A stretch of DNA of 49,897 bases from a virus. The stretch lies in the UHGV virus genome UHGV-0143838; one strand, written 5' to 3'. Below the pieces are notes generated by a model. That model was not told the origin of the DNA. It made no database searches and saw only the letters and a list, made by a program, of their open reading frames with translations. This document shows positions 16,471-16,648 of the stretch, piece after piece. Both the position numbers and the translations under genes were made by a program. How positions within the stretch are numbered: the stretch's first letter is position 1; every line of letters starts with the position of its first letter.

Positions 16471-16508
16471 GCAGCACTTCGTGATTGTTGCGAACAATCA
16501 CTCTGCTG
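16471..16508. repeat. 38-nt imperfect palindrome, copy 1 (GCAGCACTTCGTGATTGTTGCGAACAATCACTCTGCTG)
   Basis: Inner 9-bp inverted repeat GTGATTGTT/AACAATCAC plus outer stem CAGCA/TGCTG; followed by a second hairpin AACAGGG-cttgc-CCCTGTT at 16509-16527. Confidence 0.8.
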
Positions 16509-16610
16509 AACAGGGCTTGCCCCTGTTAATAATGGATTTATCCAAAAAAAAGATCGCGTCGAAGACGCATATAAAGTAAAAGAAAAATTAATTAAGCTCT
16601 CACAACAAAA

Positions 16611-16648
16611 GCAGCGGTTCGTGATTGTATGCAACAATCACTTCGCTG
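16611..16648. repeat. 38-nt imperfect palindrome, copy 2 (GCAGCGGTTCGTGATTGTATGCAACAATCACTTCGCTG)
   Basis: Same element 140 bp downstream; the outer stem carries a compensatory A-T to G-C change relative to copy 1. Confidence 0.8.

What the first reader, a model, noticed from the sequence alone, without database searches (positions are those of the whole stretch)
16471..16648. Two 38-nt hairpin elements with a compensatory substitution in a 900-bp non-coding region
Two copies of a 38-nt imperfect palindrome lie 140 bp apart, each with a 9-bp inner inverted repeat GTGATTGTT/AACAATCAC. Copy 1's outer stem CAGCA/TGCTG becomes CAGCG/CGCTG in copy 2, a paired change that preserves base pairing and argues for selection on structure. 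Copy 1 is followed by another hairpin (AACAGGG/CCCTGTT). The elements sit in the long intergenic region between divergent island operons and match none of the E. coli repeat families I can recall (REP, ERIC, BoxC).
Basis: seen in the sequence. Interest (0 to 1): 0.55.

Follow-up and report, generated by a model that had tools for sequence, protein, structure and literature searches.

The report
Conserved hairpins beside island replication origin
The two 38-nt palindromes are real and strongly conserved, and they form part of a roughly 300-bp multi-hairpin DNA module that sits at the edge of a plasmid-like replication-origin region inside a ROD21-like (EARL) genomic island, most likely serving as a strand-priming accessory signal rather than as a small RNA or a dispersed repeat.

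Summary
Two same-orientation 38-nt imperfect palindromes lie at 16470-16508 and 16610-16648 (0/100 shuffles give them), with a GC hairpin after copy 1.

The window is an E. coli EARL (ROD21-like) island. The neighbouring gene, 17058-17603, is a RepL-family winged-helix initiator (SEN1990 homologue).

About 30 related islands from several Enterobacterales genera keep the palindrome arms GTGATTGT/ACAATCAC unchanged, while the central bases vary freely. It is broken or wobble-paired in 6 of 33 variants.

Real covariation lies in the neighbouring hairpins at 16509-16527 and 16556-16568.

The module is the same whichever of at least three exchangeable Rep gene types follows it. Types B1 and C carry clear tandem iterons of their own, and type A has only candidate repeats. 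It occupies the position and orientation of the "ssi-like palindrome" of RepL/pHW126-type small plasmids.

Best reading (about 0.45): a single-strand-initiation accessory element of a latent island replicon. Main rival (about 0.3): a protein-binding inverted repeat. An oriT role is unlikely, because a better candidate lies upstream of mobQ. Function is untested, and I found no description of the element.

The parts
16422..16464 (+). Block A: conserved sequence immediately upstream of palindrome 1 (GACATATAGCATTTGCTCTTAAACGTATAGGAAAACTATATCC)
   Evidence: It is conserved in the type A alignments A2 and reg.aln and partly conserved (CTCTTAA..GGAAAA.TAT) in the B1 islands. It is duplicated together with palindrome 1 and hairpin 2 in L032. 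No consistent sigma-70 promoter was found.
16470..16508 (+). Palindrome copy 1. Outer stem CAGCA (16472-16476) / TGCTG (16504-16508). A 4x2-nt internal loop (CTTC / TC). Inner stem GTGATTGTT (16481-16489) / AACAATCAC (16493-16501). Loop GCG.
   Evidence: The arms are invariant in 19 distinct homologous modules while the centre varies. One-sided changes in the outer stem are 5 G.U/U.G cells against 1 A.C cell on the + strand.
16509..16527 (+). Hairpin 2: AACAGGG-CTTGC-CCCTGTT, directly abutting copy 1
   Evidence: Four of its 7 pairs show changes on both sides across homologues. Examples are AACAGGA/TCCTGTT in L030, GGAG/CTCC in the L005 and L029 groups, and AATAGGG/CCCTATT in L022.
16531..16546 (+). 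Invariant ATGGATTTATCCA motif. It contains a small inverted repeat (GGAT..ATCC) and a DnaA-box-like TTATCCAAA (8 of 9) at 16538-16546.
   Evidence: Its role is not tested.
16544..16569 (.). An A8 run followed by hairpin 3: GCGTC (16556-16560) / GACGC (16564-16568). On the - strand it reads as a terminator-like hairpin followed by T8.
   Evidence: The terminator scan flags it. The pair T-A changes to G-C, with 8 sequences against 9. The T-run is present in most subgroups but not all.
16610..16648 (+). Palindrome copy 2. Outer stem CAGCG (16612-16616) / CGCTG (16644-16648). Inner stem GTGATTGT (16621-16628) / ACAATCAC (16634-16641). Loop ATGCA.
   Evidence: It lies 130-142 bp after copy 1 in 15 loci. 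It is absent from the B1-type islands and from L047. It overlaps a - strand promoter-like site, ATTACA-17-TACAAT, at 16652..16624.
16690..16711 (+). Hairpin 4: GGTGCC-N10-G(A)CACC, conserved after copy 2
   Evidence: It is present with all Rep types: L044 GGTGCCATTTTCATAAGGCAC, L030, and L041 GGTGCCATTTTATTCGGCAC. It is predicted in the ssDNA fold.
16769..16874 (+). Conserved block specific to type A Rep (GCTTCGCTATTTGAATAATGAAG...ATAGCTTAAAAC...GGTACTTAAG). It overlaps the small ORF 16779-16904.
   Evidence: It is conserved in types A1 and A2 and partly in the 2.7-kb RepL plasmid pST106-2. It is a candidate for the cassette-specific origin core. That is inference.
16933..16995 (+). Candidate sites for the type A Rep in the AT-rich stretch: ACTTGAAGT (16933), ACTTCAAGT (16955, 22 bp later) and ACTTAAAAT (16987, next to the TTGACG -35-like hexamer)
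   Evidence: GC content is 21-26% here. Assigning these as Rep sites is inference by analogy with the iterons of types B1 and C.
17058..17603 (+). repL-family winged-helix initiator gene (type A; SEN1990 homologue)
   Evidence: Pfam PF05732 at E 1.9e-5. PGAP names it 'replication/maintenance protein RepL'. Homologues are the only rep gene of 1.6-4.2-kb plasmids.

Best explanation
The two palindromes belong to a roughly 300-bp multi-hairpin non-coding module. In order it contains Block A, palindrome 1, GC hairpin 2, ATGGATTTATCCA, GC hairpin 3, palindrome 2 and hairpin 4, spanning about 16422-16711. The module forms the distal part of a plasmid-type replication region carried by an EARL (ROD21-like) genomic island.

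The proximal part of that region is a swappable cassette. It contains a conserved core, Rep-specific iterons, a promoter and a RepL/pHW126-family winged-helix Rep gene.

Proposed mechanism (inferred, not shown):
- The rep-sense (+) strand becomes single-stranded. This could happen through Rep-initiated rolling-circle or strand-displacement replication of the excised island, or on entry into a recipient by MobQ-dependent conjugation.
- The module then folds into its hairpins.
- The folded module acts as a single-strand initiation signal (ssi/sso type) where host priming machinery starts complementary-strand synthesis.

This is the role assigned to the 'ssi-like palindrome' at the same position in pHW126-like plasmids. 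There it is dispensable for replication but limits copy number and multimer formation.

The complete sequence invariance of the palindrome arms implies that the stem is also read base-specifically by some protein.

Shown: the anatomy, conservation, covariation in the neighbouring hairpins, independence from Rep type, and positional equivalence to the plasmid element. Inferred: the single-stranded state, priming activity, and the identity of the recognising factor.
For: **1. Context.**
- The window matches E. coli FDAARGOS_1260 exactly.
- The island runs from a tyrosine integrase through pilV, a type IV pilin, traD and mobQ to H-NS, AlpA and DUF6387. That is the EARL family gene set (PMC6035254).

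**2. A replication region.**
- RepL homologues are the sole Rep of tiny plasmids.
- In related islands, classic 20-23-bp tandem iterons lie between the module and the Rep gene.
- The type C Rep is 45% identical (E 2e-35) to pIGMS31 RepM, and its iterons match those of pIGMS31.
- The B1 cassette shares the CCTCTTAG..TTCTTAAGGG element with B-like plasmids.

**3. Independence from Rep type.** The same module precedes types A, B1, B2 and C, while the iterons change where they are identifiable (B1, B2, C).

**4. Positional equivalence with plasmids.**
- In plasmids, the ssi-like palindrome lies about 440-540 nt upstream of rep on the rep-sense strand.
- It is shared at about 90% identity among plasmids with different Rep types.
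- The islands lack the plasmid motif and carry this module in its place.
- Published work shows the plasmid element is non-essential, and that losing it raises copy number and multimerisation (PMC6854812; bioRxiv 10.1101/2022.12.05.519187).

**5. Structural selection.**
- Hairpin 2 has 4 pairs with two-sided changes and hairpin 3 has 1.
- The diverged A2 subgroup keeps the same outer stem, AGCAGCA/TGCTGC, around a different interior. It is 100% paired and shows three pair types at one position.

**6. Strand.**
- In helices 1, 3 and 4, one-sided changes give G.U/U.G on the + strand in 10 cells, against 1 A.C cell.
- The plasmid hairpins and the A2 hairpin also carry a T.G wobble on the rep-sense strand.

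**7. Asymmetric internal loop.** The 4-nt/2-nt internal loop is kept in 32 of 33 variants. That is natural for a hairpin and odd for a dyad-symmetric duplex site.

**8. Folding.** ssDNA folding predicts every hairpin (z -3.5).
Against: - **No experiment.** Nothing has been tested on this element.
- **No detectable homology to the plasmid element.** A covariance model of the module finds no significant match to the plasmid ssi elements (best E 0.17, and none at the ssi). The equivalence is therefore positional and architectural, not demonstrated homology.
- **The arms behave differently from the plasmid hairpins.** Plasmid ssi hairpins covary freely, whereas these arms never change. None of the 8 inner pairs has two-sided changes, against 4 of 7 in hairpin 2. 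Something reads the sequence itself.
- **A link to Rep binding in one group.** In B1 islands, three of four iterons match TTCGTGATTGT, the left half of the palindrome (1 of 2000 shuffles). That suggests Rep binding in at least that group.
- **The strand signal is not uniform.** The wobble bias is mixed for copy 2 and for the ninth inner pair.
- **No replication seen in ROD21.** ROD21 showed one copy per chromosome, and deleting SEN1990 did not change the amount of the excised form (PMC10655114). Replication of these islands has therefore never been observed, although only about 3% of cells had excised.
- **The ROD21 region itself was not checked.** I did not verify that the Salmonella ROD21 intergenic region itself carries the palindromes.
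Confidence: 0.45

Rival explanations
1. Duplex protein-binding sites. The palindromes would be inverted-repeat operators or origin sites for a dimeric sequence-specific DNA-binding protein. Candidates are a RepL-type Rep, at least in some islands, or an unidentified factor common to all islands or supplied by the host. Two sites about 140 bp apart could loop the DNA to control origin firing or transcription. Hairpins 2 and 3 would be unrelated terminators.
For: - Invariant 8-bp half-sites with a free 5-bp centre are the classic operator signature.
- The TT in the left spacer is conserved, and the extended left half TTCGTGATTGT recurs as the core of the tandem iterons of B1-type islands. This mirrors the relation between iterons and inverted repeats in iteron plasmids (own knowledge: pPS10, pSC101, R6K).
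- Spacing between the copies is 138-142 bp, plus one case of 130 bp, which is about one helical turn less.
- Copy 2 overlaps a - strand promoter-like site.
- Little transcription was reported for the homologous ROD21 region (PMC10655114).
Against: - The palindromes persist unchanged next to type C (pHW126-like) and type A Reps. The type C iterons, and the candidate repeats of type A, are unrelated to the palindrome, and no other half-sites exist there.
- B1-like plasmids use different iterons.
- The outer arms are placed asymmetrically (4 nt against 2 nt).
- The sites lie 400-590 bp from the rep promoter.
- Deleting SEN1990 changed no ROD21 gene significantly.
- The directly abutting hairpin 2 and the A2 counterpart evolve by pair covariation.
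- No candidate binder was identified among the neighbouring ORFs.
Confidence: 0.3
2. RNA element. One option is a small - strand RNA of about 75 nt, started at the promoter-like site inside copy 2 (about 16617) and ended by hairpin 3 plus T8 (about 16541). The other is a structured 5' leader or sRNA on the + strand beginning with palindrome 1 and hairpin 2. Such an RNA might act in antisense control of rep, as in many plasmids.
For: - A - strand promoter-like site at 16652..16624 and a terminator-like site at 16569..16541.
- Copy 2 nearly always reads GTGATTGTA, which gives TACAAT on the - strand.
- Hairpin 3 and hairpin 2 covary as RNA stems would.
- The G.U bias favours a + strand transcript or ssDNA.
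Against: - No Rfam family matches.
- No conserved + strand promoter was found, and the scan returned fewer promoter-like sites than the shuffles did (3 against 8.0).
- The stretch between hairpin 3 and copy 2, which would be the sRNA body, is among the least conserved parts.
- B1 islands and L047 lack copy 2 but keep hairpin 3.
- In L047 no + strand gene follows the module.
- RNA stems under purely structural selection should covary, and the palindrome arms do not.
- The ROD21 RNA-seq showed low signal in this region.
Confidence: 0.1
3. Origin of transfer. The palindromes would be the oriT inverted repeats recognised by the island's MobQ relaxase, as was speculated for the region upstream of SEN1990 in ROD21.
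For: The authors of PMC10655114 suggested that the poorly transcribed intergenic region might hold the unidentified oriT. oriTs do contain inverted repeats.
Against: - A far better candidate lies 60-150 bp upstream of mobQ. It is an inverted repeat with compensatory variants, followed by a conserved RP4-like TTGCCTG/CCG core. It is conserved across islands whose MobQ proteins are only 52-61% identical.
- The palindromes lie about 20 kb from mobQ.
- No conserved nick-like motif follows them. The loop and 3' flank of hairpin 2 vary.
- An analogous hairpin sits at the same place in small non-mobilizable RepL plasmids.
Confidence: 0.03

Closest known systems
ssi-like palindromic accessory region of pHW126-like plasmids (pHW126, pIGRK, pIGMS31)
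   Same: - It lies at the far end of the replication module, about 0.45-0.55 kb upstream of a RepL-related winged-helix rep gene and on the rep-sense strand. It is followed by a conserved region, 20-bp iterons with a 22-bp period, and the promoter.
- The architecture is also similar: an imperfect hairpin with an outer and an inner stem, followed by a GC-rich hairpin. There is a T.G wobble on the rep-sense strand.
- It is shared among replicons with different Rep proteins.
- The island's type C and B1 cassettes are true homologues of these plasmids' cassettes.
   Different: - No detectable sequence or structure homology (covariance-model E >= 0.17). The plasmid motif CTGTGAAGGGTTGGCC is absent from the islands.
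- The island element usually has two, and sometimes three, palindrome copies.
- Its arms are invariant rather than covarying.
- It sits in an integrated genomic island rather than a plasmid.
- The window's own Rep (type A) is related to the pHW126 family only through the Pfam RepL profile.
ssiA/ssiB priming hairpins of the RSF1010 (IncQ) oriV (own knowledge)
   Same: A pair of roughly 40-nt hairpin signals lying a few hundred bp from the iterons of an iteron-type origin. They are recognised in single-stranded form, and base-specific recognition of the hairpin is required.
   Different: - In RSF1010 the two signals are on opposite strands and are recognised by a plasmid-encoded primase (RepB').
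- Here both copies have the same orientation, and no primase gene was found in the window.
- No sequence comparison was made.
Single-strand origins (sso) of rolling-circle plasmids and of ICEBs1 (PMC4595007)
   Same: A non-coding, hairpin-rich, orientation-specific element that is independent of the Rep protein. It converts ssDNA made by rolling-circle replication or conjugation into duplex DNA. It also exists in an integrative mobile element.
   Different: Those are Firmicute elements with defined motifs (RS_B, CS-6) that were not looked for or found here. Activity of the island module is untested.
Inverted-repeat Rep operators of iteron plasmids (pPS10, pSC101, R6K; own knowledge)
   Same: A palindrome whose half-site equals part of the iteron, as seen for the B1-type islands.
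   Different: - It does not overlap the rep promoter.
- It is retained with Rep types whose iterons are unrelated.
- Its outer arms are asymmetric.

Membership tests
ssi-like accessory palindrome of RepL/pHW126-type replication modules | Lies upstream of the conserved region, the iterons and a winged-helix rep gene, on the rep-sense strand, at the distal end of the module | tested here: met
   Island loci with type B1 and C cassettes show the order module, CR-like element, iterons, rep. Plasmids show ssi, CR, iterons, rep at similar distances. The window (type A) has the same order but only candidate iterons.
ssi-like accessory palindrome of RepL/pHW126-type replication modules | Sequence or structure homology to the plasmid element (AGCAGT-hairpin-ACTGTGAAGGGTTGGCC) | tested here: not met
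   The covariance model R1 gives no significant hit at the plasmid ssi. The motif is absent from all island loci. Only loose flank resemblance exists (AGCAG ... CTG.GAA..GGG.TTG.CC).
ssi-like accessory palindrome of RepL/pHW126-type replication modules | Independent of the Rep protein, that is, shared by replicons with different Rep and iterons | tested here: met
   Islands. Plasmids.
ssi-like accessory palindrome of RepL/pHW126-type replication modules | Dispensable for replication, with loss raising copy number and multimer formation; priming of complementary-strand synthesis | not testable with these tools
   This is a functional criterion taken from PMC6854812 and bioRxiv 10.1101/2022.12.05.519187.
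Rep-binding iteron or inverted repeat | Shares its half-site with the iterons of the adjacent rep gene and changes when the Rep type changes | tested here: not met
   This holds only in B1 islands. In the window and in type C islands the palindromes are unchanged, the iterons differ, and no further half-sites occur.
oriT of a MOBQ relaxase | Inverted repeat followed by a conserved nick region, close to the relaxase gene | tested here: not met
   A conserved candidate lies upstream of mobQ instead. There is no conserved nick-like motif after the palindromes.
Dispersed E. coli repeats (REP/BIME, ERIC, BoxC) | Many copies scattered over the chromosome | tested here: not met
   Found in 748 of 5426 genomes, with a median of one place per genome, always in the island context.
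Known RNA families (Rfam 15) | Match to a curated covariance model | tested here: not met
   Best E is 2.3, to an unrelated eukaryotic family.
EARL (ROD21-like) genomic islands (context, not the element) | P4-like integrase, AlpA-type RDF, H-NS paralogue, MobQ relaxase and TraD, SEN1990-like gene with a long upstream non-coding region | tested here: met
   Annotation of the exact-match record against the family description (PMC6035254, PMC10655114). The tRNA-Asn attachment site was not checked.

The most novel reading that the evidence does not exclude
The palindromes would define a previously undescribed, sequence-specific class of single-strand initiation or licensing signal. A dedicated host or island factor would recognise it. 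Together with freely exchangeable Rep-and-iteron cassettes, it would make EARL/ROD21-like pathogenicity islands latent rolling-circle replicons. Their complementary-strand synthesis, after excision or conjugative entry, would depend on this module.
Probability: 0.25. Interest if true: 0.6.

Novelty: new variant of a known kind. Interest (0 to 1): 0.45.

Why it matters
EARL/ROD21-like islands occur in Salmonella, in uropathogenic and probiotic E. coli (the module is present in CFT073 and Nissle 1917), in Klebsiella and in plant pathogens. Their extrachromosomal life is poorly understood.

The literature treats SEN1990 as probably not a replication protein, and it leaves both oriT and any oriV unidentified (PMC10655114). 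The comparison here shows three things:
- The SEN1990 locus is one of several interchangeable plasmid-type replication cassettes.
- A conserved hairpin module next to them stays constant across cassettes.
- A separate, conserved oriT candidate sits upstream of mobQ.

This turns two open questions into direct experiments with defined DNA segments: whether these islands replicate, and how they are re-synthesised after transfer. It also offers a compact, host-dependent cis element that could matter for island stability and spread.

Tried and rejected
- **Known RNA.** An Rfam scan of 15800-17200 on both strands at E <= 10 gave only chance eukaryotic matches.
- **Dispersed repeat.** Rejected on copy number and on absence from true plasmids and phages.
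- **CRP, LexA, DnaA, IHF or Ter site for the palindrome.**
  - From memory, spacing and sequence do not fit any of these for the palindrome.
  - Only DnaA and IHF motifs were actually scanned. The scan found one DnaA-like box (8 of 9), between the palindromes, and no IHF consensus.
- **oriT.** The TTATCCTGTGG first noticed upstream of mobQ is not conserved. A different conserved candidate was found there, which makes the palindromes an unlikely oriT.
- **RepL (type A) iterons.** Rejected because the module is unchanged with other Rep types.
- **Homology to the plasmid ssi.** Not detected, either by the covariance model or by motif search.
- **A binder among neighbouring ORFs.** Pfam and PHROGs gave nothing DNA-binding beyond RepL, AlpA and H-NS.
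- **Literature search for the arm sequences.** Only unrelated primer-type hits.
- **L012 variant palindrome.** A weak covariance-model hit in L012 (ATGATAG..CTATCAT plus GATCGATTTATTCA, E 0.25) looked like a diverged copy, but it is not significant and lies in a different arrangement.
- **pIGRK and pIGMS31 under their GenBank accessions.** Not in the collection. They were fetched as NC_011405 and NC_011406 instead.
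Full report
**The observation**

The window holds two same-orientation copies of a 38-39-nt imperfect palindrome, at 16470-16508 and 16610-16648, with starts 140 bp apart. The 25-nt core pattern, allowing up to three mismatches, occurs nowhere else in the 49.9-kb window and in none of 100 dinucleotide-preserving shuffles.

There is a 5-bp outer stem, an asymmetric 4-nt/2-nt internal loop, and an inner stem of 9 bp in copy 1 or 8 bp in copy 2. Copy 1 is followed at once by the hairpin AACAGGG-CTTGC-CCCTGTT. 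Folding energies lie 4-5 standard deviations below those of shuffles, on either strand. The one inaccuracy is that copy 2 reads GTGATTGTA and so has only an 8-bp inner stem.

The elements sit in a 918-bp non-coding gap. It lies between an 89-aa ORF on the minus strand and the gene at 17058-17603.

**Where the window comes from**

The window is identical to a stretch of the E. coli FDAARGOS_1260 chromosome. The annotated record shows an island running from a tyrosine integrase through pilV, a type IV pilin, traD, a MobQ relaxase and a DotA/TraY-like gene. It continues through the gene at 17058 (annotated as replication/maintenance protein RepL), DUF4756, two H-NS family genes, an AlpA-type gene and DUF6387. 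A tailed prophage follows.

This is the gene set of the Enterobacteriaceae-associated ROD21-like (EARL) islands (PMC6035254). The RepL-like gene corresponds to SEN1990 of ROD21. A 2023 study made several relevant points (PMC10655114):
- It predicted SEN1990 to be a winged-helix protein.
- It found no effect of its deletion on island copy number or on island transcripts.
- It remarked on the long, poorly transcribed non-coding region upstream.
- It speculated that this region might hold the unidentified oriT.

None of the EARL papers mentions these palindromes.

**Not a dispersed repeat and not a known RNA**

A 65-nt query covering copy 1 and its hairpin hits 748 of 5426 complete E. coli genomes, including CFT073 and Nissle 1917. 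The median is one place per genome, and all hits are chromosomal. The plasmid and phage collections contain it only in a few very large records that carry the island region. Rfam gives nothing.

**Conservation across islands**

Island loci came from other genera: Citrobacter, Cedecea, Brenneria, Enterobacter, Klebsiella, Pluralibacter and Pectobacterium. About 25 further loci came from a pattern scan of viral and prophage contigs.

They yield 33 distinct variants of the palindrome. The arms GTGATTGT and ACAATCAC are identical in all but one variant, while the central five bases take at least a dozen forms.

- Copy 1 has A-T in 16 variants, and copy 2 has G-C in 10.
- Six variants are exceptions: G.T four times and A.C twice.
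- One further variant has an indel that shifts the register.

It therefore amounts to about one evolutionary event and says little.

A formal count on 19 distinct copy-1 modules gives the following:
- Inner stem: 8 of 9 pairs never vary.
- Outer stem: 3 of 5 pairs never vary, and the other 2 vary on one side only.
- Hairpin after copy 1: 4 of 7 pairs have changes on both sides.
- A second GC hairpin (16556-16568): 1 such pair, split 9 against 8.

So pairing is demonstrably selected in the neighbours, whereas the palindrome arms are constrained at the level of sequence.

In helices 1, 3 and 4, the one-sided changes give G.U/U.G on the plus strand in 10 cells, against 1 A.C cell. That points to the rep-sense strand as the folded one. 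Copy 2 and the ninth inner pair give a mixed signal.

**A larger module**

Alignment of the whole gap shows that the palindromes are two parts of a larger conserved module. In order it contains:
- Block A
- palindrome 1
- hairpin 2
- an invariant ATGGATTTATCCA, which contains a DnaA-box-like 8 of 9 match
- an A-run and hairpin 3
- palindrome 2
- a fourth hairpin, GGTGCC-N10-GGCAC

Some islands have only the first half, and others have an extra copy of Block A, palindrome 1 and hairpin 2 together. One island has such a unit upstream of mobQ. The duplicated unit is always palindrome 1 together with hairpin 2.

**The decisive comparison: what follows the module**

The downstream gene is not always the window's RepL.
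- **Type A** is the window's gene.
- **Type B** is about 30-33% identical to type A and includes a Pfam RepL match.
- **Type C** has no detectable similarity to type A. It matches HTH_36 and MarR and gives a weak RepL match.

Types B1 and C bring their own tandem iterons, placed between the module and the gene, and type B2 a pair of 16-bp direct repeats:
- four 23-bp repeats of CTATGTTCGAACATAG in L026
- 22-bp repeats of GGTTATAGATTCCTATAAC in L044 and L030
- four 20-bp repeats of TTTCTTCGTKATTG in L041

The module does not change. The palindromes are therefore not the cognate iterons of the adjacent Rep in general. The region as a whole has the anatomy of an iteron-type replication origin.

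In the window, the candidate type A sites are ACTTGAAGT and ACTTCAAGT, 22 bp apart, plus a third site beside the -35-like hexamer. They lie in the most AT-rich stretch. Assigning them to the type A Rep is inference.

**The plasmid counterpart**

RepL-family proteins are the only Rep of many 1.6-4.2-kb plasmids. The type C island protein is a true homologue of the Rep proteins of pHW126, pIGRK and pIGMS31. It is 45% identical to pIGMS31 RepM (E 2e-35), with near-identical iterons. The B1 cassette shares a CCTCTTAG..TTCTTAAGGG element with B-like 2.5-2.9-kb plasmids.

For the pHW126-like plasmids the replication module has been dissected (PMC6854812; bioRxiv 10.1101/2022.12.05.519187; PMC2831885). 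It consists of:
- an ssi-like palindrome
- a short conserved region
- four 20-bp iterons
- operators
- a winged-helix Rep distantly related to RepL, which nicks DNA and supports rolling-circle (and apparently also theta) replication

The palindrome is not essential, but its removal raises copy number and causes multimerisation.

I located that element in the plasmid sequences. It has the form AGCAGT-hairpin-ACTGTGAAGGGTTGGCC plus a GC hairpin, and it lies 440-540 nt upstream of rep on the rep-sense strand. Taking it to be the ssi of those papers is my inference, because the figures are not held.

It is shared at about 90% identity by plasmids with different Rep types. That is the same independence from Rep that the island module shows. 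The islands lack the plasmid motif altogether and carry the palindrome module at the equivalent place and in the same orientation.

A covariance model of the island module finds no significant match in the plasmids. The equivalence is therefore one of position and architecture, not proven common descent.

**A diverged island subgroup**

In one subgroup the type A Rep is 61-70% identical to the window's. These islands lack GTGATTGT. About 540 nt upstream of rep they instead have a 9-bp hairpin, AGCAGCATAT-GAGCAAGCGA-ATGTGCTGC.

This hairpin keeps the same outer stem as the window's palindromes. It shows three different pair types at one position, a second two-sided change, and a T.G wobble on the rep-sense strand. 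A CTGCTG motif and a GC hairpin follow it. Here the homologous position behaves as a structure-selected hairpin.

**Best explanation**

The module is most likely the accessory single-strand-initiation (ssi/sso-type) element of a latent RepL/pHW126-type replicon carried by the island. It would fold when the rep-sense strand is single-stranded, either during rolling-circle replication of the excised circle or after conjugative entry. It would then recruit host priming functions.

That fits the following:
- independence from Rep type
- the fixed orientation
- the asymmetric internal loop, kept in 32 of 33 variants
- the covarying neighbour hairpins
- the plus-strand wobble bias
- the plasmid precedent

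I put this at about 0.45.

**What it does not explain, and the main rival**

The ssi model does not explain the absolute sequence invariance of the arms. It also does not explain why three of the four B1 iterons match TTCGTGATTGT, the extended left half of the palindrome (1 of 2000 shuffles).

Both facts favour the main rival (about 0.3). On that view the palindromes are duplex binding sites for a dimeric protein, a Rep in some islands or a common unknown factor, and the two sites may be looped together.

The two models are not exclusive. A hairpin that is also read base-specifically would satisfy both.

**Lesser rivals**

An RNA role (about 0.1) rests on two features: a minus-strand promoter-like site inside copy 2, and the terminator-like hairpin 3 with T8, which would give an RNA of about 75 nt. 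Against it:
- The would-be RNA body is poorly conserved.
- Some islands lack copy 2.
- No conserved plus-strand promoter exists.
- The ROD21 RNA-seq showed little signal.

An oriT role (about 0.03) is undercut by a much better candidate directly upstream of mobQ. That candidate is an inverted repeat with compensatory variants, followed by a conserved RP4-like TTGCCTG/CCG core. It is conserved among islands whose relaxases are only 52-61% identical.

**Caveats**

- No function has been tested.
- ROD21 was measured at one copy per chromosome, and the amount of its excised form was unchanged without SEN1990. Island replication therefore remains hypothetical, although only about 3% of cells had excised.
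- I could not confirm that the Salmonella ROD21 sequence itself carries the palindromes.
- The variants are not phylogenetically independent, so cell counts overstate the number of events.
- E-values from the shortened model calibration are rough.

**Verdict**

This is a real, conserved cis element for which I found no description. It is best filed as a new variant of the ssi-like accessory palindromes of RepL/pHW126-type replicons, here embedded in a genomic island. Interest is moderate (0.45). Most of its value lies in making island replication, strand priming and the oriT location experimentally testable.

Noticed in passing
Outside the window: L017 20409-20475 (NZ_CP069438.1 about 826408-826474), 60-150 bp upstream of mobQ: A candidate oriT for EARL/ROD21-like islands, which the literature reports as unidentified. 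The sequence is ACAATGCCCACCTATACACTG-N4-CAGTGTGTGGGGTCTACCGACGGTTGCCTGCCGCAGGCTAA. It has an inverted repeat with compensatory variants and an RP4-like nick-type core. It is conserved among islands whose MobQ proteins are only 52-61% identical.
   Followed up: partly
L041 6826-6907; L026 6429-6519; L044 2171-2256; L030 12236-12308; L047 5057-5093: EARL islands carry at least three interchangeable Rep cassettes (types A, B1/B2 and C). Types B1 and C each have their own 20-23-bp tandem iterons, and type B2 a pair of 16-bp direct repeats. Type C is a true homologue of the pHW126/pIGRK/pIGMS31 Rep, and its iterons are near-identical to those of pIGMS31. This contrasts with the published view that SEN1990 is probably not a replication protein.
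   Followed up: partly
L041 6830-6880 compared with window 16478-16488 and 16618-16628: Three of the four iterons of B1-type islands match TTCGTGATTGT, the left half of the palindrome including its spacer (1 of 2000 shuffles). B1-like plasmids use unrelated iterons. This link between the palindrome and one Rep type is unexplained.
   Followed up: partly
window 16769-16904: A highly conserved block, GCTTCGCTATTTGAATAATGAAGAAG...ATAGCTTAAAAC..., overlaps a 41-codon ORF with a TTG start (MNNEEEKCSQASYSLKQ...). It is conserved in all type A islands, including the diverged A2 group, where the start codon is ATG. It is partly conserved in the 2.7-kb plasmid pST106-2. It could be a leader peptide or the cassette-specific origin core.
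   Followed up: no
window 16652..16541, minus strand: A promoter-like site (ATTACA-17-TACAAT) inside palindrome 2 and a terminator-like hairpin with T8 would delimit a U-rich transcript of about 75 nt. Its body is poorly conserved between island subgroups.
   Followed up: partly
L009, L010, L060, L061, L063, about 540 nt upstream of rep: A diverged island subgroup replaces the GTGATTGT palindrome with the hairpin AGCAGCATAT-GAGCAAGCGA-ATGTGCTGC. It keeps the same outer stem and shows clear covariation, with C-G, T-A and G-C at one position. This subgroup also has other conserved palindromes, such as CTTCATTTT-N8-AAAATGAAG and TTCTTCACGCGATGAAGAA.
   Followed up: partly
window 16266-16300 and homologues: Another conserved block, TGTGCT(G/T)ACGCACGGCTACGCCCTGACGCTGA. 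In several islands it is preceded by the small hairpin ATGAGCTAACGCTCAT, which is deleted in the window. Its function is unknown.
   Followed up: no
L032 726-1248 and L021: Some islands carry a second copy of Block A, palindrome 1 and hairpin 2, about 500 bp upstream of the normal one. L022 has a further unit (palindrome 1 and hairpin 2 only, without Block A) about 0.8 kb upstream of mobQ, with a compensatory AATAGGG/CCCTATT hairpin. The unit therefore behaves as a duplicable module.
   Followed up: partly
window 18395-18799 and 19318-19560: The island encodes a full-length H-NS paralogue and a truncated protein with only the N-terminal H-NS domain. This fits silencing of the AT-rich origin region. 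It was not examined further.
   Followed up: no
window 22695-48069: A tailed prophage abuts the AlpA/DUF6387 end of the island. Its genes include tail fibre, baseplate, tape measure, sheath and tube, capsid and terminase-size ORFs. This probably explains why island loci turned up in the viral-contig collection.
   Followed up: no
window 12420-13289 and 8818-11532: Cargo genes include an Mrr-like restriction endonuclease (Pfam PF04471) and a DotA/TraY family protein. Several neighbouring ORFs match no family: 13426-14013, 14364-15344, 15400-15861 and 15870-16139.
   Followed up: no
L012 666-767, minus strand: A weak covariance-model hit (E 0.25). It consists of a 21-nt palindrome, ATGATAGCCCTAGACTATCAT, followed by GATCGATTTATTCA in an Erwinia contig. 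It may be a diverged relative of palindrome 1 and the GGATTTATCC motif, but it is not significant and is arranged differently.
   Followed up: no
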